Position numbers and translations under genes: made by a program
The notes under the pieces: generated by a model
Seen by the model: only the letters and a program-made list of their open reading frames with translations
Databases searched by the model: none
Told to the model about the DNA's origin: nothing
Assembly (NCBI GenBank): GCA_963815215.1
Contig: CAWFFU010000011.1
Span: 608,001 to 672,000 of the forward strand
Direction: 5' to 3'
Length of the DNA stretch: 64,000 nt
Source of the DNA: an uncultured Trueperaceae bacterium
GTDB lineage: Bacteria > Deinococcota > Deinococci > Deinococcales > Trueperaceae
Shown: one piece after another, positions 15,712 through 39,125 of the stretch
How positions within the stretch are numbered: position 1 is the stretch's first letter
Layout: the number at the start of each line of letters is the position of its first letter

Positions 15712-15721
15712 CCCGCCGGCG

Positions 15722-19842: not shown

Positions 19843-20841
19843 ATGCACCTGGCGCGGTTCCCGCGACGCCGTTACACGCCCCAGCCCACGCCGATCGAGC
19901 CGCTCGACCGGCTCAGCGAACACCTGGGCGGCCCCAACCTGTTCATCAAGCGCGACGACCAGCTCGGGCTCACGGCCGGCGGCAACAAGACCCGCAAGCT
20001 CGAGTTCCTGGTCGCCGAGGCGCTGGCACAGGGCGCCGACACCCTCATCACCACCGGCGCCGTGCAGTCCAACCACTGCCGGCTGACCCTGGCCGCCGCC
20101 GTCCACGAGGGGTTGAAGTGCCGCCTGGTGCTGGAGGAGAGGGTACCGGGCAGCTACGACCCGGGCGCCAGCGGGAACAACTTCCTGTATCGCCTGCTGG
20201 GCGTCGAGTCCATCACCGTGGTCGAGGGCGGCACCGACCTGATGGCCGCCATGCGGCGCGAGGCCGAGACGCTCGACGCCGAGGGGCGCCGCGGCTACGT
20301 CATCCCCGGCGGCGGCTCCACTCCGCTGGGCGCACTGGGGTACGTGGCCTGCGCCGAGGAGCTGCTGTCGCAGACCTTCGACATGGGCTTGCGGCTCGAC
20401 CACATCGTGAGCGCCAGCGGCAGCGGCGGAACGCACGCCGGCCTGGTGGCGGGGGTCTGGGGCGCCAACGCCAACATCCCCATCACCGGCATCAGCGTGC
20501 GGGCACAGAAGGCGGCGCAGGAGGAGCGCATCCTGACGCTGGCGCGCCGCACCGCGGAGCTCGCCGGCGTGAATGTCGAGGTACCGCCCGAGTCGGTGAC
20601 CGTGCTCGACGACTACGTGGGGCCCGGCTACTCCCTGCCCACGGACGCCATGATCGAGGCCGTGAAGCTGTTCGCCTCGCTGGAGGGCATCCTGCTCGAT
20701 CCGGTCTACACCGGCAAGGCGGCCGCGGGGCTGATCGACCTGGTGCGGCGCGGCCGCTTCGAGCGTGACGACAACGTCCTGTTCCTGCACACCGGCGGCG
20801 CCCCCGCCCTCTACGCCTACCAGGACGTACTGCTGGGATGA
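19843..20841 (+). CDS. PLP-dependent D-cysteine desulfhydrase family protein, probable D-cysteate sulfo-lyase (CuyA-like)
   Basis: KRDD...GGNKTRKLEF, QSNHCR, PGGGS, DPVYTGK, LHTGG; followed by a racemase and an SlcC-like gene; TATGAT at 19777 and GGAG RBS. Confidence 0.85.
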   Translation: MHLARFPRRRYTPQPTPIEPLDRLSEHLGGPNLFIKRDDQLGLTAGGNKTRKLEFLVAEALAQGADTLITTGAVQSNHCRLTLAAAVHEGLKCRLVLEERVPGSYDPGASGNNFLYRLLGVESITVVEGGTDLMAAMRREAETLDAEGRRGYVIPGGGSTPLGALGYVACAEELLSQTFDMGLRLDHIVSASGSGGTHAGLVAGVWGANANIPITGISVRAQKAAQEERILTLARRTAELAGVNVEVPPESVTVLDDYVGPGYSLPTDAMIEAVKLFASLEGILLDPVYTGKAAAGLIDLVRRGRFERDDNVLFLHTGGAPALYAYQDVLLG

Positions 20842-21596
20842 ACGGCTCCCCCGACAGCGGGCGACGCCGGACGGTGGGGGTGCTCGGTGGACTGGGTCCC
20901 GAAGCCACCCTCGACTTCTTCGCCAAGGTGCTGCAGCGCACCCCCGCCGCGAGCGACCAGGAGCACCTGCACCTGCTGATCGACAACGACCCGTCGGTCC
21001 CCAACCGCAACGATGCGGTGGCGGGTCGAGGCCCCTCGCCGGCACCGCAGCTCGCCGCCATGGCGCGGCGCCTCGAGGGCGCCGGGGCCGACTTCCTGGT
21101 GATGGTCTGTAACGCCGCCCACGCCTTCCAGAGCGCGATCGTGGAGGCCGTCGACATACCCTTCGTCAGCATCGTCGAGGAGACGGTCGAGGCCACCCTG
21201 ACGCGCGCGCCGTCGGCACGCCGCGTCGGCGTCCTGGCGGCCGAGGGCGCCCTCGACGCCGGCCTGTACCAGCGCGCCTTCGCGGCGCGGGGGGTGACGG
21301 CGCTCGTGCCCGAGGGGGACGACCGGGCGCGGTTCATGGATGGGATGTACCGCATCAAGGCAGGCGACAAGGGCGAGGCGGTCCAGCGCGACATGCTCGG
21401 CCTGGCACGCGTCCTGCAGGGAGCCGGCGCCGAAGCGCTGGTGGCCGGCTGCACCGAGGTCCCGCTGGTGCTGACGCAGGCGGCGCTCGACGCCGCCGGG
21501 ACGGCGCTGCCGTTCGTCGCCTCGACCGACGCGCTGGTCGAGGCGACGGTGGCGCTGGCGCTGGGAGAGCGGGCCCTGCCGGGAACACGGCCGTGA
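20838..21596 (+). CDS. Asp/Glu racemase family protein, probable cysteate racemase (CuyB-like)
   Basis: GGLGPEAT and both catalytic cysteines (CNAAH, GCTEVP); ATGA-coupled to the lyase. Confidence 0.85.
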   Translation: MNGSPDSGRRRTVGVLGGLGPEATLDFFAKVLQRTPAASDQEHLHLLIDNDPSVPNRNDAVAGRGPSPAPQLAAMARRLEGAGADFLVMVCNAAHAFQSAIVEAVDIPFVSIVEETVEATLTRAPSARRVGVLAAEGALDAGLYQRAFAARGVTALVPEGDDRARFMDGMYRIKAGDKGEAVQRDMLGLARVLQGAGAEALVAGCTEVPLVLTQAALDAAGTALPFVASTDALVEATVALALGERALPGTRP

Positions 21597-22570
21597 GCCG
21601 CATCGCACACCGCAGCGCACACCGCATCGTGGTGGCGGAGTTCCTGCCGGAAGCGGCCCTGGCCCTGCTGCGCGAGGCCGGCGAGGTGGTCGGCGGGCCG
21701 GACCTGCACGCGCGCCGGCCCGAGCTGCTCGAGCTCCTCCACGACGCCGAGGCCCTGGTGGTGCGCAATCAGACGCGCGTCGACACGCATCTGCTCGAGG
21801 GCGCGCCGCGACTGCGCGTGGTCGGCCGGGTGGGCACCGGGCTCGACAACTTCGAGCTCGCCGCGCTACGCGAGCGCGGGGTGACCCTCACATACTCCCC
21901 GGGCGCCAACGCCGCCAGCGTGGCGGAGTACGTGATGGGAGCGGTGCTCACCGTCTACCGGCGCTTCGTGCCTGTGGCGGCCGCCGTGGCCGCCGGCGGT
22001 TGGGACCGCCAGGCCGCCACCGGACGCGAGTTGGTCGGCGGGGTGATGGGCATCGTGGGGCTGGGCGACATCGGCGCGCGCGTCGCTCGGCGGGCGCGCG
22101 CCTTCGGCATGACGGTCGTCGCCACCGATCCCTACCTGCACGAGGCCAGCCCTGCGGTGCAGGAGAACGGCGTCACGCTGCTCCCCCTCGAGGCGCTGCT
22201 CGAACGCTCGGACGTGGTCACGCTCCACTCACCGCTCTCCCCCGCCACCCGTCATCTGCTGGGCGAGGAGCAGCTGGCCCTCATGAGGCCCGGGTCCCTG
22301 CTCGTCAACACCGGTCGCGGCGGGTTGCTGGACGAACCGGCGCTGGCCCGCGCGCTGCGCCGCGGCCGGCCGGCCGCGGCCGTGCTCGACGTGCGCGATC
22401 CCGAGCCTCCGGGCGAGGACGACCCTCTGCGCGGGGCACCGAACCTGCTGGTGACACCCCACGTGGCGGGCGTCACCGAGCAGGCGCTCGAGCGCGGCGC
22501 CTGCCACGTGGCCCGCGACGTGGTCCGTGTCCTGTCGGGCCGACCGCCCGTCAGCGCCGTCCCTACCTAG
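21593..22570 (+). CDS. D-isomer-specific 2-hydroxyacid dehydrogenase, (S)-sulfolactate dehydrogenase SlcC-like
   Basis: IVVAEFL, ALVVRNQTRVD, GRVGTGLDN, GANAASVAEYV, GLGDIG, NTGRGG, TPHVAGVT; no ACT domain, unlike typical SerA. Confidence 0.8.
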   Translation: MSRIAHRSAHRIVVAEFLPEAALALLREAGEVVGGPDLHARRPELLELLHDAEALVVRNQTRVDTHLLEGAPRLRVVGRVGTGLDNFELAALRERGVTLTYSPGANAASVAEYVMGAVLTVYRRFVPVAAAVAAGGWDRQAATGRELVGGVMGIVGLGDIGARVARRARAFGMTVVATDPYLHEASPAVQENGVTLLPLEALLERSDVVTLHSPLSPATRHLLGEEQLALMRPGSLLVNTGRGGLLDEPALARALRRGRPAAAVLDVRDPEPPGEDDPLRGAPNLLVTPHVAGVTEQALERGACHVARDVVRVLSGRPPVSAVPT

Positions 22571-22704: not shown

Positions 22705-22769
22705 GTGAGGCGCCTGAAAAGTCATGCACACGGGAGGATGGGCCTTCGCGCAAGCGGGTCCGGCCTTGG

Positions 22770-26763: not shown

Positions 26764-29052
26764 TTGAGCAACGTCGGGCCGCGCCCGCCGGCCGCGATCC
26801 TCGGCCTGCCGCGAATGCGCGCCGCGGTCTCGCTGCTGGCGGGCGCAGGGCTGCTGCTGGAGATCGCGCTCACGCGCATGCTGTCGCTGCTCTACTTCAG
26901 CCCGTTCGTCTACGTGCTGCTGGCGGTGGCGGTGCTCGGTTCGGGGTTGGGGGCCGCAGCCGCCACGCTCCTGCCACGGACGCGCCGGCGCTCCGGCGCA
27001 GCGCTGGCGGCGTTGGCCGGAGGCCTCGTCACCCCGCTGGTCGTGGTGCTGCTGCTCCAGGTCGCGACGACGCCCCTGCAGGGCCTGGCGCTGGCGCTGT
27101 GCGCCCTGCCGTTCGTCTTCCTGGGGCACGCGCTGGCGACCCTGTTCGCGTTGCGGAGCGCGGCTGCGCCGCGCCTGTACCTGAGCGACCTGGTGGGCGC
27201 CGGCGTCGGCGCACTCGCCTCCGTGGCGGGGCTCGACGCCCTCGGCGCCGTCGGCACGGTGCTGCTCGCCGGCCTGCTGGCGGCACTGGCGGGTTCGGTG
27301 CTGGCGCCGCGGCCGCTGCTCGGCGCGGCCTTGGTGGCGTCGGTCGCTTGCGGCGCGCTCCTGGCGGGGGAGCTCGCCAGCGGCTGGCCGCAGCCGCCGC
27401 TCGCCGCACTCGCCGCACCCAAGCCGCTGAGTCGCGAGCTGCGGAGCGGCGCGACACCGGTCGCACACGCCTGGGACGCGCTCGGGCGCAGCGACCTGGT
27501 GCGCCGACCCGACGGTAGCCTGTACCTCTATCTCGACGGAGGCGCCGGTTCGCTGGTGCCCGACACCTCCAGGCCGACCACCTACCTTCACGACGTCGGC
27601 GCCTACGCTTACGCCGTCCAGGAGCCGAAGAGCGTGTTCGTCGTCGGCCCGGGCGGGGGGCTCGACGTGGCGCTCGCCAAGGCCTTCAACGTCCCCTCGA
27701 TCACCGCCGTCGAGCTCAATGGCGCCGGCGTGCGGTTGGCCGAGCGCGCCTCGTCCTCCGGTCTGGTGGCGGGCGCCGCGGCCTACGCCGGTGTGGACCT
27801 CCACATCGACGAGGGCCGCAGCTTCCTGCGCCGCCGGGGCGGCCGGTACGACCTGATCCTGCTATCGCAGGTCGTCACCGACGCCGCCGAAGCGCGCTCG
27901 TACGCGCTGGTCGAGAACTCGGTGTACACGGTCGAGGCCTTCCGTGAGGACCTGGCCCACCTGACGTCCGGCGGCGCGCTGGCACTCAAGCTCTACGACG
28001 AGGTCACCCTGACGCGCGCGCTCACCACCGCCGTGACGGCACTCGCAGCGCGCGGCATGAGCCAGGCCGACGCCCTGCACCACACCCTGGCGGTGCTCGA
28101 CGCCCGTGGCAGCCGCCCGATCCCGCTACTCATGGTCTTCGACCATGCCCTCGGCCACGACGAGGCGCTCGCGTATGGGCGCCTGGCTCAGTCCGCGGGC
28201 CTACGGATCCTCTACCTGCCGGGCCTCGTGGAGAACCCGCCGCTCGATGCCCTCAGCGCAGGCCGCACCGATCTGGCCCACATCGAGGCGTCCAGCGGCG
28301 GCGTCGACATCGCTCCGACCTTCGATCGCCGCCCCTTCTTCTTCCAGTTCGAGCCCGGCCTGCCACGGCCGCTCGCGTCCCTGCTCTGGGGGCTGGCCGC
28401 GGTGGCGCTGGTCGGGGCGGGCCTCCTCGCGCTGCGTCAGCGGCGCCGGAGCGGGCCCGCCCGGCCTGCCCCGCTACTGTTCGCCTTCCTTGGGGCGGGC
28501 TTCATGCTGTTCGAAGTGGGCGCGCTGCAGCGCCTGCGGCTCTACCTCGGCCATCCCACCCTCACGCTGGCGGTGGGGCTGGCGGCCCTGCTGGTAGGCG
28601 CCGGGCTGGGCTCCGGCCTGGCCCCCCGCTTCGCCCGCAACGCGCGCCGGGAACCGGTCGCCATCGGCCTGGCCGCCGCCACGGTAGCGGGGGCGACCCT
28701 GGCCTGGAGCCTGCTCGTTCCGTTGTGGACGAACGCCACCCTGGCCTGGCCGACCGGCGCCCGAGCGACGCTGGCGGCGGCGTCGCTGCTGCTGGTCGCG
28801 CTCCCCATGGGCGTGCCGTTCCCGCTGGCGCTGCGGCTGGCGGGCCGGAGCGGTCCGGCCGAGGTCGCGTTGGGCTGGTCCGTCAACGGCGTGGCGGCCG
28901 TGGTGGGTAGTAGCGCAGCCACCGCCATCGCGGTGATGTGGGGCTTCCCCTACGTGCATGCGGCCGCCGCGGCGACCTACCTGCTGGCCGCGGGCGTGCC
29001 CCTCCTCATGGCGTCGAGCCGTCCGGCGTCGGCCGAAGCGCCACCACCGTAG
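26764..29052 (+). CDS. Membrane protein with central spermidine-synthase-like SAM-binding domain (start may be ATG 26815)
   Basis: N- and C-terminal TM bundles flank VVGPGGGLDV, AVELN, IDEGRSFL, YDLI and ENSVYTVEAF motifs. Confidence 0.75.
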   Translation: MSNVGPRPPAAILGLPRMRAAVSLLAGAGLLLEIALTRMLSLLYFSPFVYVLLAVAVLGSGLGAAAATLLPRTRRRSGAALAALAGGLVTPLVVVLLLQVATTPLQGLALALCALPFVFLGHALATLFALRSAAAPRLYLSDLVGAGVGALASVAGLDALGAVGTVLLAGLLAALAGSVLAPRPLLGAALVASVACGALLAGELASGWPQPPLAALAAPKPLSRELRSGATPVAHAWDALGRSDLVRRPDGSLYLYLDGGAGSLVPDTSRPTTYLHDVGAYAYAVQEPKSVFVVGPGGGLDVALAKAFNVPSITAVELNGAGVRLAERASSSGLVAGAAAYAGVDLHIDEGRSFLRRRGGRYDLILLSQVVTDAAEARSYALVENSVYTVEAFREDLAHLTSGGALALKLYDEVTLTRALTTAVTALAARGMSQADALHHTLAVLDARGSRPIPLLMVFDHALGHDEALAYGRLAQSAGLRILYLPGLVENPPLDALSAGRTDLAHIEASSGGVDIAPTFDRRPFFFQFEPGLPRPLASLLWGLAAVALVGAGLLALRQRRRSGPARPAPLLFAFLGAGFMLFEVGALQRLRLYLGHPTLTLAVGLAALLVGAGLGSGLAPRFARNARREPVAIGLAAATVAGATLAWSLLVPLWTNATLAWPTGARATLAAASLLLVALPMGVPFPLALRLAGRSGPAEVALGWSVNGVAAVVGSSAATAIAVMWGFPYVHAAAAATYLLAAGVPLLMASSRPASAEAPPP

Positions 29053-30100
29053 AGGCCTCCGCGAGCGAGCGCTCGACCGCCAGGCACAGGGCCACCGCCA
29101 CCCGCCCGTCCGCCCCGTCGGCCGGGACGGGCGTGCCCTCGGTCACGGCGCGGAGGAACGCCACGGTCTGACGCGGAAGGTCGAAGGCGTGCCCGCTGCG
29201 TTGCGGCACCGCCGCGCTGCGGATACCATCGCCGTCCTGCACCCACAGCGCCACCGTCGGTTCCTCGTCGGCGTCCCGGCGGCCGTCCCAACGCCCCCGC
29301 AGGGAGCCGTCGGCGGCGTTGAGATCGCAGTGCACGTGGTGCTCGAAGCCTGCGATGCTGCGCGTCACCATCGCCCGCGCACCGCTCTCGAAGGCGAGTC
29401 GCACGTCGAGGTTCTCGTACAGCCCCTCGCGGCCCGGGCGGCTCGTGGCCCACGCCTGCAGCTCGGTCACCTCGCCGAGGTACCAGCGGGCCAGGTCCAG
29501 ATAGTGGATGGGCTCCTCCAGGATGCTGCTGCCGAGCTTGACGGGATCCTGCTTCCAGCCCGACGAACCGGAGCGGTGCGGACGCCGGAACAGCCGCAGG
29601 TCGAGGTGGGTCGGCGGGCCCAGCCGCTCGGCTTCCTCGCGCAGCACCTCCAGCCAGCGGAACACGCGCATCTCGTGGCCCACGGCCAGCACGCGATCCG
29701 CACGCCCCGCCGCCGCCAGCATGCGGTCGCAATCCTCGATCGTGGTGGCCATGGGTTTCTCGACCAGCACGTGCTTGCCGGCATCCAGAGCGGCCACGGC
29801 ATGCTCAGCATGGAGGTAGTTGGGGCTGGCCACGATGACCGCGTCCATCTCGAAGGCCAGGAACGCCTCGATGTCGGTCGTGGCCGGCGTCCCCCATGCG
29901 TCCTGCAAGCGTCGGGCGCTGGCCGTGGTACGCACCAGCACCCCGGCCAGCGGTGTGCCCGTGCTCTCCAGCGCGCTGCGGTGGGCCGCCGCCCAGCGCC
30001 CCCCACCGATGATCCCCACCCGCACCGGAAGCGCCACGCCACCGCGCCGGCTCACACCGTGCCGGCTCACACCGTGCCGGCTCACACCGCGCTCGTTCAC
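29006..30100 (-). CDS. Gfo/Idh/MocA-family NAD(P) oxidoreductase (candidate NAD-dependent sulfoquinovosidase)
   Basis: VGIIGGG, SPNYLH, KHVLVEKPM, GHEMR, GSSILEEPIHYLDL; GTGA-coupled to the upstream gene. Confidence 0.8.
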   Translation of the reverse strand: MNERGVSRHGVSRHGVSRRGGVALPVRVGIIGGGRWAAAHRSALESTGTPLAGVLVRTTASARRLQDAWGTPATTDIEAFLAFEMDAVIVASPNYLHAEHAVAALDAGKHVLVEKPMATTIEDCDRMLAAAGRADRVLAVGHEMRVFRWLEVLREEAERLGPPTHLDLRLFRRPHRSGSSGWKQDPVKLGSSILEEPIHYLDLARWYLGEVTELQAWATSRPGREGLYENLDVRLAFESGARAMVTRSIAGFEHHVHCDLNAADGSLRGRWDGRRDADEEPTVALWVQDGDGIRSAAVPQRSGHAFDLPRQTVAFLRAVTEGTPVPADGADGRVAVALCLAVERSLAEASTVVALRPTPDGSTP

Positions 30101-30167
30101 ACCGCGCCCTCTCCGCGCGGGGCCGGGTCGCCGCGGACCTCGGCGCGGACCTCGGCGCGGACCTCTG
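30046..30167. repeat. Two short tandem-repeat arrays at the junction of the Gfo genes
   Basis: 15-bp GCCGGCTCACACCGT x3 (third ends in C) plus one degenerate copy (30046-30105); 12-bp CGCGGACCTCGG x3 (30132-30167, last imperfect). Confidence 0.85.
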
Positions 30168-31179
30168 TAGGGGCCACGTCGCGGTCCTCGGCGATGGAAA
30201 TCAACGCGGCCAGCGAGGTCCGCAGCGCGCCGATCCCGTCTTCGACCGTCGCCAGCGGAGCGTGTGGCAGACCCCGCAAGGCGCGGTGGAAGTGCCGGAT
30301 CTCCTCGTGCCAGGGATCGCCGGGCGGCGCCTCCCAGCGCACGGTCTCGTCGGAGCGCAGTAGGCTGACCTGCTGTGGCCACTCCACGGCGATCATGCCG
30401 TCCGGCCCCATGTAGGTGTGCCGCTCACTCGCCGGGACGCCGGCCGGCAGCCCCCACGACACCTGGATCTGCCCGAAGCCCCCACCCGGGTAGCGCAGCG
30501 TGATGTGGGCGCTGTCCACAGCCTTGTCACGGATTCCCGTCAGCTCCGGCTTGCCCTCGCCGAAGGTGTACCCGTAGGCACGCACGACACTCGGCGGCTC
30601 CCCGAAGAACGCCTCCCACTGGTCGAAGAGGTGGCAGCACATGTCGATGATGGGTCCGCCGTTGGCGGCGGCGTCGTGCATCAGCCGCTTGGGCCGGACG
30701 CCTGCTGCCAGCGTGGCCTGCGCCAGCACCGGACGGCCGACGGCCTCGCCGAAGGCCAGGATCTGGCCGGTGGCCGGATCGAAGCGGCGCATGAAACCGA
30801 TGCGCAGCAGCTTGCCGGAGGCCTCCGCCGCACGGCGCATGGCTTCCGCCTCGCTCAGCCGCAGGGCCACCGGTTTCTCGCACAGCACATGCTTCCCGGC
30901 CTCGAGCGCCGCCACCACGAAGCGCGCGTGGAGGAACGTGGGCGTGCACACCGAGGCAGCGTCGACGTCGGCGCGCTCCCAGGCCGGCGCGGGGTCGTCG
31001 AGCGCCAGCGCACCGAACTCGGCCGCCACCGCTCGCGCACGTGCCAGGTCGGGATCGGCCACGGCGACCACCTGCGCGCCGGCCTCCGTCCACCCACGGG
31101 CGTGGCGGGCACCCATGTCACCGGCGCCGACGACCACCACGCCGAGCCGTTCTTGGGACCCTCGCTCCGGGCGGCTCAT
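30097..31179 (-). CDS. Gfo/Idh/MocA-family NAD(P) oxidoreductase
   Basis: VVGAGDMG, CTPTFLH, KHVLCEKP, GFMRRFD, GGPIIDMCCH. Confidence 0.85.
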   Translation of the reverse strand: MSRPERGSQERLGVVVVGAGDMGARHARGWTEAGAQVVAVADPDLARARAVAAEFGALALDDPAPAWERADVDAASVCTPTFLHARFVVAALEAGKHVLCEKPVALRLSEAEAMRRAAEASGKLLRIGFMRRFDPATGQILAFGEAVGRPVLAQATLAAGVRPKRLMHDAAANGGPIIDMCCHLFDQWEAFFGEPPSVVRAYGYTFGEGKPELTGIRDKAVDSAHITLRYPGGGFGQIQVSWGLPAGVPASERHTYMGPDGMIAVEWPQQVSLLRSDETVRWEAPPGDPWHEEIRHFHRALRGLPHAPLATVEDGIGALRTSLAALISIAEDRDVAPTEVRAEVRAEVRGDPAPRGEGAV

Positions 31180-32243
31180 GGCAGGTACCTCCGGTGCCAG
31201 CCCTCCCCGGCACCCTCCATCGCGGGCGCGCCGCGATAGCGGCGGTGGTCGTACCACGGCAACGCGGCATCGGCCCGAGCCGAGATGGCACGGAGGTACG
31301 GTAGTGCGCGCGCCCGCAGCCGCTGCTCGACCGCCGCCGCGTCAGGGTAGGCCTCGAGGGCCTCCAACCACACCGCGCGGCCGGCCAGGAAACCGCTCGC
31401 GCCGGCGTCGAACGCGAGTTCGAGGTCGGCTTCGAATTCGGCGCGCCCGACGCCCGCGCTCAGCAGCACCCAGGGCGCGGGGCAGGCATCATCGAGCTCC
31501 GCCAGGAAGCCGCGCACCTCATCCACGGAGTAGAGGGCGGGACGCTCGCGACCGTCGAAAGCGCCGCCGTGATAGCCGCGGCAGTGCTTGAGGTCGGCAG
31601 GGAACTCTAGCTTGAAGATGTCCACCCCGAAGCGCGGCTCGGCGAAGCGCCGAACGGACGCGAGGACGCGCTCGGGCCGGCGCGCCTGGTACTCCGGCGA
31701 GGTCGCGTCCTCGCCCTTCCCCGGGTAGACCAGCAGCTCCAGGATGAACGGGATGTCGCTCGCACGGCAGGCCTCGCCCACCTCCGCAACCAGCCGCTCC
31801 TGATGCGCGCGCGTCGCTTCCGAGGTGTCGGGACGATACCAGGCCAGCAGCTTGACGCCGGACGCCCCTGCGCGCTTGATGGCCGCGACGCTCCACCCCT
31901 CGATGAGCCTGGAGCGACGCTCGCCGTCGACCACCTCGAACCCGTAGTCCTCGAGCGTGCCGATCAGCGCCGTGCTGCCGGGAACGGCCGACAGCGCGGT
32001 GGCGTGCGTCCAGACGGGATCGATGAGGATCGCACCCGCCTCGGGAGCCAGCACCCGGGTGAGGAGCGCCTTGGCGGCAGCCACCTCGTCGAAGCTCAGG
32101 CTCTGCGGGTCCCGGTCGCCGGCGCGCGCCAGCGCCTGGAACAGTGGCGGCCGCTGATCGACCGCCACCATACGGAACACGCCGTCGTCGTCGGCGAGCG
32201 TCATCATCGCGCGCAACTTGCCGGCACTCAGGACCTCGCTCAT
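31176..32243 (-). CDS. Class I LacD/YihT-family aldolase (candidate sulfofructose-1-phosphate aldolase)
   Basis: MVAVDQR, AILIDP, GVKLL, PFILE, VDIFKLEFP, PWVLLSAGV, GASGFLAGRAVW. Confidence 0.85.
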   Translation of the reverse strand: MSEVLSAGKLRAMMTLADDDGVFRMVAVDQRPPLFQALARAGDRDPQSLSFDEVAAAKALLTRVLAPEAGAILIDPVWTHATALSAVPGSTALIGTLEDYGFEVVDGERRSRLIEGWSVAAIKRAGASGVKLLAWYRPDTSEATRAHQERLVAEVGEACRASDIPFILELLVYPGKGEDATSPEYQARRPERVLASVRRFAEPRFGVDIFKLEFPADLKHCRGYHGGAFDGRERPALYSVDEVRGFLAELDDACPAPWVLLSAGVGRAEFEADLELAFDAGASGFLAGRAVWLEALEAYPDAAAVEQRLRARALPYLRAISARADAALPWYDHRRYRGAPAMEGAGEGWHRRYLP

Positions 32244-32312
32244 GCTCGCACCTCCATCGTCTATCTTCACGCAGTCCACCTCGGTTCGTGGGTCGGGTTC
32301 ATCGGGCCGCCG

Positions 32313-33248
32313 TCAGCGCGGGGACGTGCCGGCGTCCGGGCGCACGCCCCCCGTCCCGGTGGCAGCGCGGAAGGCGACCACCTCATCGTGACCGGGCAGA
32401 CCGGCGCGCGCCCCGAAGGAACGGCACGCCATCGCCGCGGCAGTGGCCGCGTAGCGGGCCGCCTCCTCTGCGCCCTCGCGCCGTGCGATGGCGGCGGCGT
32501 ATGCCCCGTGGAACACGTCGCCCGCGCCGGTGGTGTCCAGCGCCTCGACGCGCGGGGCGGGGACGTGCGTGGCGCGCTCACCCTCCAGCAGCAGCACCCC
32601 CTCCGCCCCCAGCGTGATCCCCACCACCTGGCCGGGGCGTCGCCGCAGGTGCGGCAACGCCGCCTCGGGGTCGTCCCGGCCGATCAACTCCTGCGCGCAC
32701 TCGCGCGCCACCAGCAGGTGGTCGGCCAGTACGGCGTCCTCCCAGTGGCGGAGGTTGCCGTAATCGGCGACGACGGGGATCTCGTCGGCGCGGGCGGCCT
32801 CGGCAGCAGCGCGGCACAGCCGAGGATGCCTCAGGTCGACGAGCACGGCCCCGGCCCCTTCGAGGAAGCCGGGGGGCAGACGGGCGGGATCGTCCTCGAG
32901 CCCACTGCCGCGGAAGGGGAAGATCCAGCGTTCCCCGTCGGGCGCCACCAGCACGGCGCTGACGAACGTGCGCGCGCCTGGGAGACGGCGCACGCCGGAG
33001 ACGTCCACCCCGTGCGCCTCGAGGTCTTCGAGGGCGGTGGCGCCGGCGGCGTCGTCGCCGTGGAGCGCCACCAGCGCGGCAGCCACCCCGAGGTGCGCGG
33101 CCGCTGCGGCGGCCGTAGCGGCCGGCCCGCCCCCCTGCGTCCGGAAGGCCGTGGCATCGGTACGCGAATGCGCCGGCGGGAAGCGCTCGACCCGCCACAC
33201 GTGATCCAGACACGACAGCCCGACGCACACCACGCGCGGACCCCTCAC
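32313..33248 (-). CDS. PfkB-family sugar kinase, sulfofructose kinase YihV-like
   Basis: VVCVG..CLD, GGGPAATAA, SAVLVAPDGER, VLVDLR, DTTGAGDVFHGAY. Confidence 0.85.
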   Translation of the reverse strand: MRGPRVVCVGLSCLDHVWRVERFPPAHSRTDATAFRTQGGGPAATAAAAAAHLGVAAALVALHGDDAAGATALEDLEAHGVDVSGVRRLPGARTFVSAVLVAPDGERWIFPFRGSGLEDDPARLPPGFLEGAGAVLVDLRHPRLCRAAAEAARADEIPVVADYGNLRHWEDAVLADHLLVARECAQELIGRDDPEAALPHLRRRPGQVVGITLGAEGVLLLEGERATHVPAPRVEALDTTGAGDVFHGAYAAAIARREGAEEAARYAATAAAMACRSFGARAGLPGHDEVVAFRAATGTGGVRPDAGTSPR

Positions 33249-34648
33249 GATCGCAGGTAGGGCGCCGGGGGCAGCGCCGGCAGGACGTCAGCACCGAGGT
33301 AGGCGCACAACTCGTAGAGCGCGTCGACCCTGTCGCCGCGACCGAAAGCGAGGTGGTGCGGCAACCGCCGGTCGAGCAGGTTGGCGACGAAGGCGCGCAC
33401 GTTGACGGGGCTCTCACCCCAGCGCAGCCCGCCGATCCAACCGCGGACGCCGTCGTACCCCGCCTTCTCCGTCCGCCCGACCTCGCCGCCGACGATGACG
33501 GCGCGACGACCGGAGCTCAGCAGGCGGAACCCGGTCACGGGACCGGCTCGCAGGCGCATGTCGCGCACGACGCCGGTACCGTCGCGATTGAAGTGCGTGG
33601 TGAGACGGGTGTCGGGGCTGCCCGAGGGTCCCGGCGCCGCCCACGCCACGGGCGCGTTGCCGCAGTGCCAGACCTGGAGGGTGTCGTCGGTGTCGTCCGC
33701 GTCGGAGAGATCCATGAGGATGGCGGGGTCGCCGCTGACGCCCTGCAGCGCCAGCATCGACAGCGCCCCCATCACGTCCCCCTCGCAGGCGGCGGGCACC
33801 TCACGGCCGCTCGAGTCCCCCATCGCAGCGCACGCCATCGAGCCGCAGGTCTCCGCCACCTCTGGCCAGCACCGCACGGCCAGCGCCGTCGCTCCCGCCT
33901 CCTCGGCCAGGCTCTCGAGGGCGGCGTCGATGCGCGCGCCCCGGACGAGCTGCTCGAACGTCACGTCCGTGCGCTCGCGGTCCTGCCAGACGCGAGCGCG
34001 CGCCTCGGCCTCAGCGTCAGGCACCGCCGCCACGCGCTCGAACAGCGCCGCCAGATCGCGCGCGACGACCTCGACTCCGACGAGGTCGGGCGCCTCTTGC
34101 AGTCCGTAGAAGCCCGGCGCGGTACCCCCGATCGCCAGGATGCGGGCGCTCCGCACCGCGGCCAGGCCGCGGAGCGCGCCTACCGTGGCCGCCAACCGCC
34201 GCACGAACTCGGGGTCATCTGGCAGCCCGTAGAACCACTTGACGGGTCCGGACTTGGCCACCTGCGGCGCGTCCAGCAGCGAGAGCGTCATGTTGAGGCC
34301 ACACAGCGAGTTGAGCGGCAGCGGCCCCTCGCTCCAACCGCCCACGCGCTCCGGCACACCCCACAGCCCGACCCGCTCGGTGGCCGCGAGCAGCGGGGCG
34401 ACCACGTCGCCGGTCGCGAAGGTGGTGAGCTGCACCAGCAGGTAGTCGAGGCGCTCTTCGGCGAGCACGCGCGCCGCACGCGCGGCCTCGGGCGCGTCGC
34501 GTACCGCCCGCTCGGACGCCACCAGCTCGAACCCGAGCCGATCTGCGAGCTTCCCCAGACCGTCGAGGCTGAGGCGCGCCGCTGCGGCGGCGTCCCCCTT
34601 GAAGGCGGGCCGCGTCACCGAGACGAACCCGATGCGGGGTCGGATCAT
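33245..34648 (-). CDS. L-fucose/L-arabinose isomerase-like protein, sulfoquinovose isomerase SqvD/SftI-like
   Basis: R..F, TTFA, LNSLCG, APGF, AVRCWP, CEGD..GALSM, MDL, WHCG, HFNR, PHH, in the order I recall for SqvD-type isomerases. Confidence 0.78.
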   Translation of the reverse strand: MIRPRIGFVSVTRPAFKGDAAAAARLSLDGLGKLADRLGFELVASERAVRDAPEAARAARVLAEERLDYLLVQLTTFATGDVVAPLLAATERVGLWGVPERVGGWSEGPLPLNSLCGLNMTLSLLDAPQVAKSGPVKWFYGLPDDPEFVRRLAATVGALRGLAAVRSARILAIGGTAPGFYGLQEAPDLVGVEVVARDLAALFERVAAVPDAEAEARARVWQDRERTDVTFEQLVRGARIDAALESLAEEAGATALAVRCWPEVAETCGSMACAAMGDSSGREVPAACEGDVMGALSMLALQGVSGDPAILMDLSDADDTDDTLQVWHCGNAPVAWAAPGPSGSPDTRLTTHFNRDGTGVVRDMRLRAGPVTGFRLLSSGRRAVIVGGEVGRTEKAGYDGVRGWIGGLRWGESPVNVRAFVANLLDRRLPHHLAFGRGDRVDALYELCAYLGADVLPALPPAPYLRS

Positions 34649-34655
34649 GATTGGA

Positions 34656-35585
34656 TCATCCCTTCACGCCTCCGGCGGTGAGACCGCTGATGATGCGCTG
34701 CTGGAAGAACAGGATCAGCAGCACCAGAGGCACGATGCCGATCGTGACGGCTGCGCTGATCAGGGCCCAGGGGAAGGCGAACTCGCCCTGGTACAAGGTG
34801 ATGCCCACGGGCACGGTGCGCATGGTCGTGGCGGTGTTGAACGTCAAGGCCAGCAGGAACTCGTTCCAGGAGTTCACGAACGCGATGATGCCGGCGGTCA
34901 CGACCCCCGGCGCCGAGAGCGGCGCCACCACGCGGAACAGCGCCCCCACGCGGCTGGTGCCGTCGACGGTGGCGGCGGCCTCCAGGTCCTCCGGGATGAG
35001 CTGGAAGAAGCTGGTCAGGATGAGCGTGGTGATCGGCAGGCTCAGCGCAACGTAGGGGATGATCAGCGCCCAGTAGGTGTTGAGCAGGTTGGGCGTCATC
35101 AACGTGGTGGGCAGGAAGCCCCAACCTAGCGCGTGCAGGTACCCGAACAACGGCGTCAGCAAGGGCACCTCGACGCCCACGAACAGACGGTACAGCGGCA
35201 CCAGCATCACCAGCGCCGGGAACATGCTGGTCATCACGATGGAGGTGAGGATCGCCCGGCGGCCGCGCAATCTGAGCCGCGCGAGCGCGTAGCCGGCCAG
35301 CGAGGCGAACAGCACGCATACCAACGTGGCCGCCAGCGACACCACGGCGGAGTTCAGGAGGAAGCGGCCGAAGGGGTTCTCGGTGAAGACCGATCCGTAG
35401 TTGTGGAGCGTGGCGTGCAGAGGAAGGTAGGTGATGGGGATGCGGGTCAGCTCGTTCTCGGACTTCAGCGACGTGAGGAACAGCCATACCGCCGGGAACA
35501 GCCCGTTGACGATCATCAGCAGCAGTCCGAGTCGCACCACCACGTAGCGCACGCGTCGACGGGGTCCTCTCGCGGGGGCCGTCAT
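34656..35585 (-). CDS. Carbohydrate ABC permease (MalG-type)
   Basis: LAGYALAR, IPEDLEAAATVDG (EAA), SWNEFL, FQQRIISGLTAGGVKG. Confidence 0.9.
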   Translation of the reverse strand: MTAPARGPRRRVRYVVVRLGLLLMIVNGLFPAVWLFLTSLKSENELTRIPITYLPLHATLHNYGSVFTENPFGRFLLNSAVVSLAATLVCVLFASLAGYALARLRLRGRRAILTSIVMTSMFPALVMLVPLYRLFVGVEVPLLTPLFGYLHALGWGFLPTTLMTPNLLNTYWALIIPYVALSLPITTLILTSFFQLIPEDLEAAATVDGTSRVGALFRVVAPLSAPGVVTAGIIAFVNSWNEFLLALTFNTATTMRTVPVGITLYQGEFAFPWALISAAVTIGIVPLVLLILFFQQRIISGLTAGGVKG

Positions 35586-36703
35586 TCGGTGTAGATCCAT
35601 CGCAGGTAGAAGACCGTGATCGCCAGACTGATCAGGAACAGCACCACCGACAGCGCCGCGGCATAGCCGATGTTGAGCGCCAGCGTCGAGTTGTAGATGT
35701 ACACCCCCAGGGTCTCCAGGCTGCGACCGGGGCCGCCGCGGGTCATGGCGAAGGGGATGTCGAAGGTCTGGATAGCGGTGAGCGTACGGAAGATGAGGGC
35801 CACGGCGATCGACGGACGCAGCAGCGGAAGGGTGATGCGCCAGAAGCGCTGCCAGGCGTTGGCGCCGTCGACCACCGCTGCCTCGTAGAGGCTGGCGTCG
35901 ATCGACTGCAGGCCGGCGAGCAGGATGAGCCCCACGAACGAGGAGGTCTTCCACACGATCGTGATGTTGACCGCCGCGATCGCCGGCGAAACCCGCGCCA
36001 GCCACAACGGCCCGTGCAAGCCGATGCGGCCCAGCAGGTCGTTGATCACGCCGTACTGGCTCTGGAACAACCAGGCGAAGGTGAGGCCGGCGAAGACGCG
36101 CGGCATCGCCCACGGCAGCAGCAGCGCCACTCTGCCGAGCCACCGCAAGCGGGACTCGACGTTCGCCAGGAGCGCCAGCGGCAGGCCGGCGACGAAGGAG
36201 CCGACCACGCTGACCACGATGATCAGCATGGTGATCGAGAAGGAGTTCCAGAAGCGGCCGTCGGTCCAGCGACCACCGGCGCCCGGATGGAACCCCAGCA
36301 GGTAGGCGAACAGCAGCACCATCAGCAGGCCCAGCACGGTGCCGGAGAGGCGACCGATCCAACGCCGACGCACGGCCCACAGCAGCGGGGCCAACGCGGC
36401 CAGCCCCAGCAACCGCAGCCACAGCAGGTGCGAAGCATTCCAGATCAGCCCTTCACCCCAGAGCATGCGCCGGAAGTTGCCGAGGCCGATGAAGGGCGTG
36501 CCCCGGAAGGGCTGGTTGAGCCGGTTGAAGTGCAGCGATTGCCACAGCACGGTGAGCATGGGATAGAGCATGACCGCGGCCAGCGTCAGCAGAGCCGGCA
36601 GCAGCAACAGCACGGCGAGCTGCCCGTCGGACAGGTTGCCGGTGCGCAGCCGGCGCCAGAAGCCCGGCCTGCGGTAGGGGGTGGTGGGAACGGTGCGAGC
36701 CAT
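35582..36703 (-). CDS. Carbohydrate ABC permease (MalF-type)
   Basis: FIGLGNF, LLPWAMP, LAGLQSID..LYEAAVVDGA, TRGGPG. Confidence 0.9.
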   Translation of the reverse strand: MARTVPTTPYRRPGFWRRLRTGNLSDGQLAVLLLLPALLTLAAVMLYPMLTVLWQSLHFNRLNQPFRGTPFIGLGNFRRMLWGEGLIWNASHLLWLRLLGLAALAPLLWAVRRRWIGRLSGTVLGLLMVLLFAYLLGFHPGAGGRWTDGRFWNSFSITMLIIVVSVVGSFVAGLPLALLANVESRLRWLGRVALLLPWAMPRVFAGLTFAWLFQSQYGVINDLLGRIGLHGPLWLARVSPAIAAVNITIVWKTSSFVGLILLAGLQSIDASLYEAAVVDGANAWQRFWRITLPLLRPSIAVALIFRTLTAIQTFDIPFAMTRGGPGRSLETLGVYIYNSTLALNIGYAAALSVVLFLISLAITVFYLRWIYTE

Positions 36704-36777
36704 GGAAGATAGGGGAGGCAAGATCGGGTGGGGCGCCGCGCGAACGCCCCACCCCTGGATCGACGCCTTCGCCGAGC

Positions 36778-38043
36778 CTACTGCGAGAGGATGTCCTGCA
36801 GGCCGGTCTGCATCTTCTGCAGGGCCTGGTCGGCCGTCATCGAGCGCGCGAAGAAGGCATTCATGGTGGTGCGGATGAGGTCGCTGACGTCAGGGTAGAG
36901 CGGCGTCACCGGCCGCGGCCGGGCGTTGATGATGACGTCGTAGAAGTCGGCGTACTGCGGGGCCGTGGCGAGCACGGCCGGGTCCTTGTACAGCGCCTTG
37001 CGCGCCGGGATGTTGCTGGCCTTCACCGCCAGCGTGCGCTGGCTGTCCTCGTTGGCCAGGAAGCGCATGAGCTTGAAGGCGTCCTGCTTGTGCGCGCTGT
37101 AGGGGTTCATCGCCCACTGCCAGCCGCCCACGCAGGTAGCGGAGGTGTGGCCTTGGAAGGCGGGCAGCGGCGCCACCCCGACCTTGCCCTTGACGGCGGT
37201 GTCGGCGTCGCTCTGGAAGTGCGCCCAGGCATAGCCCCAGTTCAGCATGAACACCACGTCACCGGACTGGAACATCTTGCGCGAGGTGTCGGTGGCGACC
37301 TCGGCGATGTTGGGGATGGTGATGCCCGAAGAGAGCGTCTGGTCGTACCAGTCGAGCGCCTGCTTGCCGGCCGCCGTGTTGATGGTGATGTTCCCGTTGG
37401 CGTCGCGCCAGTTGCCGCCGGCCGTCCACAGCGCCTCGAGGAACGTGCAGTTGGTGCCCTCGATGGCGGCGCCCTGGTAGTTGAAGCCCTGCAGGTTGGG
37501 GTTGTTCTCCCCCTTCATGATCGTCAGGGCCTGGTTCTTGAGCTCCTCCCAGGTCTTGGGCGGCTGGAAGCCGTACTTGTCGAGCAGGTCCTTGCGGTAG
37601 TACAGGAACTGCGCGTCGGTGAAGGCAGGGATGGCATACAGCTTGCCGTTCACCGTGTCGGCGTTGATGGGGCCCGGAAGGAACGACGCCAGGTAGGTCT
37701 TCTCAGCGTCGGCGGAGGCGAAGTAGCTGTCGAGCGGCTCGGCCCATCCCGACGCCGCGTACTGCGCGGGGCGCACCACGTCGACGAGCATGACGTCGAT
37801 GGCCGAGGACTTGCTGGTCAACACGGTGCTGAGGTACTGCTGCTGCACGTCGCTTGTCGCGCCGCCCACCTCGAAGGTGGCGTGGATGTCGGGGTTCTCG
37901 GCGTTGAACTTGTCGAGCAAGGGTCCGATGACATCGGGCCGCTGCTGGCCGCCGATGAAGACCTTGAGGTTCACCTGGGCGGCGCCGGTCGCGAACAGCG
38001 CAGCGAACGCCAGGGCGAGCAGGACGCGGATGGGTCGGTTCAT
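36778..38043 (-). CDS. Carbohydrate ABC substrate-binding protein, sulfoquinovose-binding SmoF-like
   Basis: GGATS.VQQQYL.TV, DVVRPAQ, PAF.D..FLYYRKDLL, QG.AIEG..CTFL, EVATD..RK.FQ.G, NW.YAW.HFQ, TC.GGW, RPVTP, which align with the Agrobacterium SmoF sequence as I recall it. Confidence 0.85.
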   Translation of the reverse strand: MNRPIRVLLALAFAALFATGAAQVNLKVFIGGQQRPDVIGPLLDKFNAENPDIHATFEVGGATSDVQQQYLSTVLTSKSSAIDVMLVDVVRPAQYAASGWAEPLDSYFASADAEKTYLASFLPGPINADTVNGKLYAIPAFTDAQFLYYRKDLLDKYGFQPPKTWEELKNQALTIMKGENNPNLQGFNYQGAAIEGTNCTFLEALWTAGGNWRDANGNITINTAAGKQALDWYDQTLSSGITIPNIAEVATDTSRKMFQSGDVVFMLNWGYAWAHFQSDADTAVKGKVGVAPLPAFQGHTSATCVGGWQWAMNPYSAHKQDAFKLMRFLANEDSQRTLAVKASNIPARKALYKDPAVLATAPQYADFYDVIINARPRPVTPLYPDVSDLIRTTMNAFFARSMTADQALQKMQTGLQDILSQ

Positions 38044-38090
38044 GGATACCTCCGGAATCGTGTTGGGTGGTTGGCGAACGGACGGGTCGT

Positions 38091-39125
38091 CTACGCAGGC
38101 GGCACCTCCATCAGGGCAGGGGGACCTGTGCTGTCGCGGACGATGAGCTGGGTCGCCAGACGCGCCGACGGGACGGTACCGCCGGCCATCAGGGTGAGGA
38201 GCGCGTCGAAGGCCATCTCGCCCAGGCGACGCGTCGGTTGCCGGACCGTGGTGAGCGCCGGGCTGGCCACCGCGGCCAGCGGTGTGTCGTCGAAGCCGAC
38301 GACGGACACGTCGCCCGGCACACGGCGGCCCGCCGCCACGAGAGCGCTCAAGGCGCCCAGCGCCACCAGGTCGTTGTTGCCGAGAACGGCGTCGAAGGGC
38401 GTCGCGCCGGCGAGCAGGCGCGCGCAAGCGGCGGCGCCGCCCGTCTTGCTGTCGTCGGTCGGCGCGAGCAGCTCGGGGTCGGCCTCCAGACCGAAGGTCT
38501 CGACGCCGGTACGGTAGGCGCGGATGCGACGCTCGGCGTAGCGTGAGCCGCGGGGACCGCTCAGGAAGGCCACCCGACGCAGGCCGAGTTGGTGCAGGTG
38601 CGCCAGCGCCTGCCACACCCCGGCACGCTCGTTGCTTCCGATACTCACGGCCTGGAGTGTGCGCGGACCGGCATGGATGGCCACCACCGGGTAGTGGGCG
38701 GCGATCAACCGGTTGAGGCCCTCGACGTCCTCGTCGGCTACGCTCGAACCGAGCACGAGCAGGCCGTCGACCCGCCCCTCGCGTAGCCACAGGGTGAAGT
38801 CGGGGCGGGGCGCGGTCGAGAGCAACAGCGGGAAGCCCGCCTCCTCGGCCCGGCCGGTGACGCCGAGCAGCAGCTCGTTGAAGTAGGGGTTGGCGAACAC
38901 CAGCTCGGAGCTGCGAGGCAGCATCAGCCCGACGACTTGCGCCTTCCGGCGCGTCAGCGCCCTCGCCGCCGCGTCGGGATGGTACCCCAGCGTGTCGGCG
39001 AGCTCGCGCACACGCGCACGCGTACCGCGTGCGATCTGCGGGTCGTCGCGCAGGGCCCGTGACACGGTCGAGCGAGCCAGTCCCAGCCGTTCGGAGAGGT
39101 CCTTCAGCGTGAGCTTGCGCCTCAC
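38091..39125 (-). CDS. LacI-family transcriptional regulator
   Basis: TLKDLSERLGLARSTVSRAL HTH, GYHPDAAARAL hinge, VPGDVSVVGFDD, LTTVRQP. Confidence 0.93.
   Translation of the reverse strand: MRRKLTLKDLSERLGLARSTVSRALRDDPQIARGTRARVRELADTLGYHPDAAARALTRRKAQVVGLMLPRSSELVFANPYFNELLLGVTGRAEEAGFPLLLSTAPRPDFTLWLREGRVDGLLVLGSSVADEDVEGLNRLIAAHYPVVAIHAGPRTLQAVSIGSNERAGVWQALAHLHQLGLRRVAFLSGPRGSRYAERRIRAYRTGVETFGLEADPELLAPTDDSKTGGAAACARLLAGATPFDAVLGNNDLVALGALSALVAAGRRVPGDVSVVGFDDTPLAAVASPALTTVRQPTRRLGEMAFDALLTLMAGGTVPSARLATQLIVRDSTGPPALMEVPPA

What the first reader, a model, noticed from the sequence alone, without database searches (positions are those of the whole stretch)
29006..39125. Mosaic sulfo-EMP operon built from parts of different known SQ pathways
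Seen: nine co-oriented, mostly overlapping genes. By recalled similarity the importer is SmoF-type (Agrobacterium sulfo-SMO), the isomerase is SqvD/SftI-type (Bacillus sulfo-TAL/EMP2, fucose-isomerase fold rather than YihS), the kinase is YihV-type PfkB (E. coli sulfo-EMP), and the aldolase is class I LacD/YihT family rather than class II SqiA. Three independent SQ-associated resemblances point the same way. Automated annotation would probably call this a generic sugar or tagatose operon.
Basis: partly seen in the sequence, partly recalled or inferred. Interest (0 to 1): 0.85.

Follow-up and report, generated by a model that had tools for sequence, protein, structure and literature searches.

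The report
Sulfosugar breakdown operon in Deinococcota
These nine genes most likely let a Truepera-family bacterium import and break down sulfoquinovose, the sulfur-bearing sugar of plant and algal membranes, by a variant of a known route, and two unexplained enzymes in the operon may be a new way of freeing that sugar from its carrier.

Summary
Nine co-oriented genes are real (4 of 8 junctions overlap). The host is a Trueperaceae bacterium. A sulfosugar substrate, probably sulfoquinovose (SQ), is well supported. The binding protein's best solved relative is SmoF, with 8 of 9 SQ-binding residues kept. In Thermaceae the same core travels with suyAB in the same 34 of 68 genomes, 30 of which carry a GH188 SQase. 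The window itself holds cuyA and cuyB (above NCBIfam cut-offs) and an slcC-like gene 6.4 kb away. The 'mosaic of known parts' is overstated: hybrid sulfo-EMP1/2 clusters are already published, and the isomerase (26-29% to SqvD-like proteins), kinase (KRN triad reads R-R-P) and aldolase (28% to YihT) are separate subfamilies, not borrowed orthologues. I found no report of SQ catabolism in Deinococcota in three library searches. The open part is the Gfo/Idh/MocA pair. The genome has no YihQ or GH188, and in five genomes of one genus the pair stays with the importer although no aldolase is found, so it is a candidate new NAD-dependent SQ-glycoside-releasing step. Nothing here is shown biochemically. 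New variant of a known kind.

The parts
38091..39125 (-). LacI-family repressor (likely local regulator)
   Evidence: PF00356+PF13377; kept upstream of the SBP in several Trueperaceae loci
36778..38043 (-). SmoF-type SQ/SQ-glycoside-binding protein of an ABC importer
   Evidence: Best PDB hit 7NBZ E 8.6e-112; Q12,S43,D67,D113,G166,T220,W276,R345 kept, H13->Q; nearest plasmid relatives lie in sulfo-ED clusters in 4 of 4 opened
35582..36703 (-). ABC permease (MalF/UgpA-type)
   Evidence: PF00528
34656..35585 (-). ABC permease (MalG/UgpE-type); no ATPase gene in the operon, UgpC-like ATPases elsewhere in the genome (46-50%)
33245..34648 (-). Fucose/arabinose-isomerase-fold aldose-ketose isomerase, Deinococcota clade; predicted SQ to sulfofructose
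   Evidence: NF048012 122 bits, below cut-off 700; profile hits L-arabinose isomerase E 4e-6; invariant E289, D291, H431, H432; tree
32313..33248 (-). PfkB kinase, YihV-like (35%); predicted sulfofructose 1-kinase
   Evidence: Best PDB hit 7AG6; R138 kept, K27->R, N109->P
31176..32243 (-). Class I (DeoC/LacD) aldolase; predicted sulfofructose-1-phosphate to DHAP + sulfolactaldehyde
   Evidence: PF01791, PRK12858 above cut-off; 8TNF 1e-70 > LacD > YihT; K193, S226, R253 equivalents kept but not diagnostic
30097..31179 (-). Gfo/Idh/MocA oxidoreductase 1 (Gfo1); invariant R162-P-K164 loop; role open, candidate glycoside-release step
   Evidence: 37% to the Gfo in a Chlorohelix SqvD-like/PfkA/GabD cluster
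29006..30100 (-). Gfo/Idh/MocA oxidoreductase 2 (Gfo2; start codon uncertain); aligns with SqgA K107,R166,E189,H193,H321 but lacks Y136 and K172
   Evidence: 24% to SqgA-like proteins; GH188 structures not among the Foldseek matches shown
   Evidence: NF052482 534 bits, cut-off 450
20838..21596 (+). cuyB, cysteate racemase
   Evidence: NF052483 263 bits, cut-off 190
21629..22570 (+). D-2-hydroxyacid dehydrogenase, SlcC-like (candidate sulfolactate to sulfopyruvate)
   Evidence: 50% to the one in the Thermaceae suyAB operon, 43% to the one in a Paracoccus aestuarii suyAB-Ldh cluster

Best explanation
An inducible EMP-type sulfoglycolysis operon for sulfoquinovose and its glycosides. The ABC importer (SmoF-like SBP, two permeases, shared ATPase) takes up SQ or SQ-glycerol; the fucose-isomerase-fold enzyme converts SQ to sulfofructose; the PfkB kinase makes sulfofructose-1-phosphate; the class I aldolase splits it into DHAP (central metabolism) and sulfolactaldehyde (SLA). 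SLA is probably oxidised to sulfolactate by the unlinked GabD-like enzyme (G000 C3:1086370-1087806) and can be desulfonated through the neighbouring slcC-like/cuyB/cuyA genes (sulfolactate, sulfopyruvate, cysteate, then sulfite + pyruvate + ammonia; the aminotransferase was not identified) or the unlinked suyAB. The Gfo pair most likely acts before the isomerase; my best guess (about 40%) is NAD-dependent oxidation-elimination release of SQ from its glycoside, standing in for the missing SQase. Shown: gene content, residues, co-occurrence. Inferred: every substrate and reaction.
For: SBP: SmoF best hit, 8 of 9 ligand residues kept, including the sulfonate pocket Q12/S43/G166/T220; three alpha-glucoside-type controls have Glu at 220 and Gly at 12; it groups with SBPs of sulfo-ED clusters against those controls (clusters). 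Thermaceae: isomerase in 34 of 68 genomes and SuyB in the same 34, within 8 kb in 31 of 31 cases on one contig; that SuyB is 58% identical to the one in the Cupriavidus pinatubonensis hpsN/hpsO cluster, with SAF, 2-hydroxyacid dehydrogenase and Ldh_2 genes co-oriented. 30 of those 34 carry a GH188 homologue with the SqgA residues, within 20 kb in 18 of 18 same-contig cases. The Deinococcus peraridilitoris copy has GabD-like, GH31 and AEC exporter genes; one Thermaceae copy has glpK/glpD directly after the GH31. The window holds cuyA and cuyB above cut-off; cuyA lies within 12 kb of Gfo2 in 18 of 21 Trueperaceae genomes where both are on one contig. For an upstream role of the Gfo pair: SBP-permease-permease-Gfo1-Gfo2 stands alone in 5 of 5 genomes of genus g24 examined, none with an aldolase match and 4 of 5 with no isomerase match.
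Against: No enzyme was assayed. The isomerase scores 122 of 700 bits on SftI, and closer homologues (29-35%) sit with xylulokinase-like and psicose-epimerase-like genes (L008, L010). The kinase lacks two of three KRN residues. Aldolase residues are shared with a paralogue elsewhere in the genome and its best NCBIfam hit is tagatose-bisphosphate aldolase. The genome has no YihQ orthologue (best 25-27%), no GH188, no YihS, YihR or close YihU, and no hit to a TauE query. cuyA is in 107 of 128 Trueperaceae genomes, many without the operon, so it may serve cysteate in general; 3 of 21 same-contig cases are 41 kb to 1.7 Mb away, and short contigs favour near pairs. The genome lacks Ldh_2/ComC, so its suyAB route has no evident racemase partner. 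The strongest context evidence comes from Thermaceae orthologues at 40-48% identity, not from this genome. Four Trueperaceae genomes carry both Gfo2 and GH188 (G256, G322, G323, G324). The TIM-barrel lyase that stepwise glycoside cleavage needs is beside the operon in only 3 of 12 Trueperaceae loci and has no orthologue here. A first SBP tree with long-branch rows left the Trueperaceae clade unresolved.
Confidence: 0.78

Rival explanations
1. The same chemistry on another sulfohexose, for example sulfofucose going through sulfotagatose and sulfotagatose-1-phosphate, or with the Gfo pair acting as an oxidation-reduction epimerase that funnels an SQ epimer into the route.
For: The aldolase is far closer to 8TNF and LacD than to YihT; PMC12421959 proposed a sulfotagatose EMP route from a PfkB + PF01791 pair in Paracoccus strain Merri (that 8TNF is this aldolase is recalled, not shown by a call); the isomerase profile hits L-arabinose isomerase; KRN is altered; no SQase in this genome.
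Against: The SBP keeps D67 and R345, which bind C3/C4 hydroxyls of SQ in SmoF; GH188 SQase accompanies the orthologous core in 30 of 34 Thermaceae genomes; PMC12421959 found no sulfotagatose and no induction of that pair; an epimerase would be of little use in g24 genomes lacking the aldolase.
Confidence: 0.12
2. A neutral rare-sugar or polyol operon (tagatose, psicose, fucose or inositol-like), as automated annotation would say.
For: Aldolase passes the PRK12858 tagatose-bisphosphate aldolase cut-off; best NCBIfam hits of kinase and Gfo proteins are ribokinase and IolG; isomerase homologues occur in neutral-sugar and iol clusters; g24 modules often have an IolE-like gene divergent from the SBP.
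Against: SmoF sulfonate pocket with Thr/Gln rather than Glu at 220; exact co-distribution with suyAB in Thermaceae; GH188, GabD-like and cuyAB neighbours.
Confidence: 0.07
3. Within the SQ reading: the Gfo pair acts downstream on SLA (reduction to DHPS or oxidation to sulfolactate) rather than upstream on the glycoside.
For: The genes follow the aldolase, translationally coupled; the operon has no YihU or SlaB.
Against: The pair is kept with the importer where no aldolase is found; a GabD-like enzyme 63% identical to one in a Thermaceae SQ cluster is present in the genome; Gfo2 has a sugar-sized SqgA-like site.
Confidence: 0.15

Closest known systems
Hybrid sulfo-EMP1/2 clusters (Sharma et al. 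2023, PMC10665668; Wei et al. 2022, PMC9594981)
   Same: Combination of a PF02952-type isomerase with a PF00294 kinase and PF01791 aldolase fits their definition of a hybrid; same predicted intermediates.
   Different: Reported from Proteobacteria, Actinobacteria and Firmicutes ('deinococc' 0 hits in PMC10665668); here no YihQ, SqgA, mutarotase, YihU/SlaB or exporter in the operon, and two Gfo/Idh/MocA genes instead.
E. coli sulfo-EMP (yihSVT)
   Same: PfkB kinase (35% to YihV) and class I aldolase (28% to YihT).
   Different: No YihS; KRN triad is R-R-P; ABC import rather than MFS; no YihQ/YihR/YihU orthologues.
Sulfo-EMP2 / sulfo-TAL SqvD (SftI)
   Same: Fucose-isomerase superfamily, conserved acidic and His metal-ligand motifs.
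   Different: 122 of 700 bits on NF048012, 26-29% to SqvD-like proteins, separate clade; no SqiK, SqiA or transaldolase.
SmoF (Agrobacterium sulfo-SMO) and SBPs of rhizobial sulfo-ED clusters
   Same: 8 of 9 ligand residues; 42-46% identity to the sulfo-ED SBPs.
   Different: H13->Q; no monooxygenase or ED genes in this operon.
GH188 SqgA (PMC10755693) and stepwise 3-keto-glycoside systems (AL/BT1-4, bioRxiv 2024.03.25.586180)
   Same: Same Rossmann fold; Gfo2 aligns with K107,R166,E189,H193,H321; a Gfo pair with a TIM-barrel gene in some relatives resembles the stepwise systems.
   Different: Only 20-25% identity to SqgA-like proteins, Y136 and K172 missing; no DUF1080 gene in the operon and no linked TIM-barrel lyase in this genome.
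Tandem sulfosugar-mineralisation routes (Paracoccus sulfofucose ED + SuyAB, PMC12421959; sulfo-TAL + SuyAB predicted in Thermotogae/Chloroflexi, PMC9594981) and CuyA/CuyB (PMC11193023)
   Same: Sugar cleavage genes linked to C3-sulfonate lyase genes in one cell.
   Different: Here an EMP-type upper part, linked to suyAB in Thermaceae and to cuyA/cuyB/slcC-like in many Trueperaceae.

Membership tests
sulfo-EMP1 (E. coli) | YihS-type isomerase (PF07221) | tested here: not met
   No tblastn hit of YihS in the genome
sulfo-EMP1 (E. coli) | YihV kinase with K27-R138-N109 triad | tested here: not met
   R138 kept, K27->R, N109->P in the window and in 11 other Deinococcota cluster kinases aligned, N109 uncertain in one
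[quoted passage not shown]
   Family and residues met, but also present in an unlinked paralogue; 28% to YihT
sulfo-EMP1 (E. coli) | GH31 SQase with R301/W304/Y508 | tested here: not met
   Best GH31 in genome 25-27%, motif absent; the NF007746 cut-off test is uninformative because no control genome passed it
sulfo-EMP2 / sulfo-TAL | SqvD/SftI isomerase (NF048012 cut-off 700) | tested here: not met
   122 bits; separate clade
sulfo-EMP2 | SqiK (PF00365) and SqiA (PF01116) | tested here: not met
   Kinase is PF00294, aldolase PF01791
hybrid sulfo-EMP1/2 (Pfam definition of PMC10665668) | Mixed set PF02952 + PF00294 + PF01791 in one cluster | tested here: met
   PF02952 is below its gathering score (20.7 vs 29.3 bits), backed
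SmoF-type SQ-binding protein | Q12,H13,S43,D67,D113,G166,T220,W276,R345 | tested here: met
   8 of 9; controls differ at 12, 220 and 345
GH188 SqgA | K107,Y136,R166,L170,K172,E189,H193,H321 and family-level identity | tested here: not met
   Gfo2 5 of 8, 24% identity; Gfo1 20-24%; Foldseek lists no GH188 entry among those shown
CuyA / CuyB | NCBIfam NF052482 and NF052483 cut-offs | tested here: met
   534/450 and 263/190 bits
any sulfoglycolytic pathway | Growth on SQ, or SF/SFP/SLA formation by the enzymes | not testable with these tools
   needs assays

The most novel reading that the evidence does not exclude
Deinococcota run their own sulfo-EMP, assembled from separate enzyme subfamilies, and mineralise SQ to sulfite within one cell (through SuyAB in Thermaceae, through cysteate and CuyAB in Trueperaceae); and the Trueperaceae Gfo1/Gfo2 pair is a third kind of SQ-glycoside-cleaving system, neither GH31 nor GH188, that some species keep alone to harvest glycerol from SQ-glycerol.
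Probability: 0.3. Interest if true: 0.75.

Novelty: new variant of a known kind. Interest (0 to 1): 0.52.

Why it matters
[quoted passage not shown] This operon passes none of those markers in this genome, yet its isomerase is found in 102 of 364 Deinococcota genomes, so a sizeable group of degraders may be missed. Linkage to suyAB or cuyAB predicts single-cell release of sulfite rather than excretion of a C3 sulfonate. If the Gfo pair frees SQ from glycosides it would be a new entry enzyme and a new marker. The mosaic idea alone adds little, since hybrids are already in print.

Tried and rejected
PDB sequence search with the isomerase alone: 0 hits. Literature search for 8TNF: 5 irrelevant papers; the name is not in PMC12421959, so its origin stays recalled. 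Gfo1 or Gfo2 as GH188 members: rejected on identity, motif and fold ranking. Plasmid searches with Gfo1/Gfo2 gave one orthologue (Chlorohelix) and otherwise generic 28-33% hits; Atlas look-ups gave only the Gfo/Idh/MocA family. Distant Gfo2 homologues (36-40%) in metagenomes sit beside other ABC transporters with no SQ genes recognised by my reference set. The TIM-barrel gene next to the g24 modules is IolE-like, unrelated to the Chlorohelix/L049 type, and missing in 2 of 5 g24 loci, so I do not count it as a lyase partner. Aldolase active-site residues do not separate SFP from other substrates. The control failed within g24 (0 of 4 isomerase-bearing g24 genomes matched the aldolase; G290 matched only a 33% paralogue), so the query's power rests. 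No promoter- or terminator-like sites were found. The VIA-align second look on the Gfo2 model was not obtained, so the active-site match rests on sequence alignment. Earlier findings of the scan: none. No complex prediction was run, as no binding claim is made.
Full report
Observation. The nine minus-strand genes are there at the stated coordinates, with high GC3 in the chosen frames. Four of eight junctions overlap by 4 nt; the others are 7-74 nt apart. Families: LacI, SBP_bac_1, two permeases, a fucose-isomerase-fold protein, PfkB, DeoC/LacD, two Gfo/Idh/MocA. The nearest named relatives are Trueperaceae assemblies; the window is on contig C11 of a 97% complete genome.

Testing the resemblances. 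SBP: best solved relative SmoF. PMC8940949 (passages) lists nine ligand residues; eight are kept, including the sulfonate pocket, and three controls beside alpha-glucosidase or maltose-type annotations have Glu at 220. I opened 4 of the 19 plasmid hits at 42-48% other than the Deinococcus one; all 4 are sulfo-ED-type clusters with alpha-glucosidase and TauE/TSUP genes. With long-branch rows left out, the SBP groups with these against the controls; with them in, the tree was unresolved. Kinase: best solved relative YihV, 35% identity, but the KRN triad of PMC8006165 (passages) reads R-R-P. Aldolase: 8TNF > LacD > YihT; catalytic residues are not diagnostic. Isomerase: SftI model at 122 of 700 bits; own clade, 26-29% to SqvD-like proteins from Chlorohelix and Zymomonas, 29-35% to homologues in other clusters. 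So the resemblances are real but the genes are not orthologues borrowed from the named pathways.

Context in relatives. The isomerase matches in 102 of 364 Deinococcota genomes at E<=1e-30 (62 of 127 other Trueperaceae, 34 of 68 in family f5, 4 of 125 in f2; the tally includes distant paralogues and the unpublished G325, on which no claim depends). In f5 the core is co-oriented with SAF, GD_AH, 2-hydroxyacid dehydrogenase and Ldh_2 genes. The GD_AH protein is 58% identical to the one in the C. pinatubonensis hpsN/hpsO cluster, which PMC9594981 (passages) describes as SuyAB. It is found in exactly the 34 genomes with the isomerase, within 8 kb in 31 of 31 same-contig cases (the G220 copy has two stops; kin are not independent). 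Thirty of the 34 also carry a GH188 homologue with the SqgA residues given in PMC10755693 (passages). Two of the four without it carry a cluster GH31. The D. peraridilitoris copy has GabD-like, GH31 and exporter genes.

This genome. No YihQ, GH188, YihS, YihR or close YihU. A GabD-like gene, 63% to one in an f5 cluster, is on another contig. The window holds cuyA and cuyB above their cut-offs and an slcC-like gene 6.4 kb beyond Gfo2. PMC11193023 (passages) shows CuyB racemises cysteate and CuyA releases sulfite, and that SlcC oxidises (S)-sulfolactate. cuyA is near Gfo2 in 18 of 21 same-contig cases out of 58 genomes with both, but it is in 107 of 128 Trueperaceae, so the link is suggestive only. 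A suyAB locus lies about 90 kb away without a ComC-type gene in the genome.

The Gfo pair. Gfo2 orthologues are confined to Trueperaceae within the phylum (61 of 364) and lie within 10 kb of the isomerase in 38 of 38 same-contig cases. In five g24 genomes picked because they had Gfo2 but no isomerase, SBP-permeases-Gfo1-Gfo2 stands alone; none has an aldolase match, four have no isomerase match, and kinase matches are weak except in G310. This favours a role on the imported compound, before sulfoglycolysis. Gfo2 aligns with five of eight SqgA site residues; K107, E189 and H193 are general to the family, R166 is kept across distant homologues, and H321 is kept mainly in the close clade. Gfo1 has an invariant Arg-Pro-Lys in the same loop, shared with the Chlorohelix orthologue. 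Both models are confident (pLDDT 91 and 89) and match generic sugar dehydrogenases/reductases, not GH188. bioRxiv 2024.03.25.586180 (passages) describes clusters with a Gfo pair and TIM-barrel lyases that cleave glycosides through 3-keto intermediates, one of them slowly on sulfoquinovosides. A TIM-barrel gene is next to the operon in 3 of 12 Trueperaceae loci and in Chlorohelix, not here. My estimate: glycoside release 0.4, epimerisation or oxidation of a related sulfosugar 0.25, SLA processing 0.15, other 0.2; a redox-neutral sulfite elimination (reverse of UDP-SQ synthase chemistry, from recall) is not excluded but below 0.05.

Comparison with what is known. PMC10665668 (abstract, passages, section 7) already defines hybrid sulfo-EMP1/2 clusters and speaks of mosaic combinations; PMC12890257 (parts 1-2 of 7) repeats this; PMC9594981 notes SqvD replacing YihS and SuyAB in sulfo-TAL clusters. 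PMC12421959 (parts 1-2 of 9 and passages; its preprint, outline only) shows single-cell mineralisation for sulfofucose. I found no report of SQ catabolism in Deinococcota: search for SuyAB/sulfoquinovose/Deinococc (25 of 31 listed, none on this), Meiothermus + sulfolactate (0 papers), sulfoglycoly with four taxon words (30 of 383 listed; two hold both terms, community surveys, not read). The library lacks most subscription papers, Liu et al. 2021 was not seen, and supplements with accession lists were not opened, so prior bioinformatic mention is possible.

Verdict. Works like a sulfo-EMP (0.78 for SQ, 0.90 for some sulfosugar); files as a hybrid sulfo-EMP by Pfam content, not as a member of EMP1 or EMP2. 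The mosaic point is known. What is worth following is the phylum-wide spread with linked desulfonation genes and the unexplained Gfo pair. Novelty: new variant of a known kind. Interest 0.52.

Noticed in passing
window 19843-22570 (+): cuyA, cuyB and an slcC-like dehydrogenase, followed by an AsnC-type regulator-like gene and a family-5 peptide ABC transporter that converge on the operon; cuyA is in 107 of 128 Trueperaceae genomes.
   Followed up: yes
G000 C11:536135-552854 (L068): Second sulfonate-like locus about 90 kb away: GntR, 2-hydroxyacid dehydrogenase, suyA/suyB (60% to Cupriavidus SuyB), a Gfo protein, TctABC, LVIVD protein, AprA-like flavoprotein with ferredoxin, creatininase, and a divergent nitrate/taurine-type ABC transporter; SuyB is in 9 of 10 genomes of this genus and no other Trueperaceae at E<=1e-90.
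   Followed up: partly
L042:17194-19380, L066, L067, L174: A GH31 of the alpha-xylosidase type sits in the SQ cluster of 7 of 364 Deinococcota genomes or elsewhere in them, all with the isomerase; it keeps Arg at the YihQ R301 position but has F/W and F at W304 and Y508: a possible divergent SQase.
   Followed up: partly
L042:7598-8659, L059:13665-14795, L115:6841-7971, L174:15763-16764: An M24 (aminopeptidase P-like) gene recurs inside these clusters in separate lineages, between Gfo1 and Gfo2 in some; absent from this genome; role unknown.
   Followed up: no
L046, L047 (Neorhizobium, Shinella plasmids): Clusters with related kinase and aldolase but a Zn alcohol dehydrogenase instead of an isomerase, with GabD-like and TSUP genes in L047: may take up a sulfo-alditol.
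   Followed up: no
L043 (Chlorohelix plasmid) 7230-23079: SqvD-like isomerase, PfkA-type kinase, GabD-like, Gfo1 orthologue and TIM-barrel gene next to sulfite reductase and siroheme genes: looks like SQ use as a sulfur source.
   Followed up: partly
L163 (Zymomonas mobilis pZZM402) 128-11361: Class II aldolase, mutarotase, SqvD-like isomerase, GH188, TonB receptor, GabD-like; the same plasmid carries a 54% CuyA homologue.
   Followed up: no
L176:8565-11292 (G291): A 33% isomerase homologue lies between an iol cluster and a gene above the sulfolactaldehyde reductase cut-off.
   Followed up: no
window 30043-30100 and 30120-30165: Short tandem repeats at the Gfo1/Gfo2 junction (three RHGVS-like and three EVRA-like units), lacking in relatives; the Gfo2 start is uncertain.
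   Followed up: no
window 26764-29052 (+): 762-aa membrane protein with a weak spermidine-synthase-like domain, convergent on Gfo2 and kept there in many Trueperaceae loci.
   Followed up: no
window 39270-44528 (-): Large 7TM-PAS-GAF-GGDEF-EAL protein directly upstream of the LacI gene.
   Followed up: no
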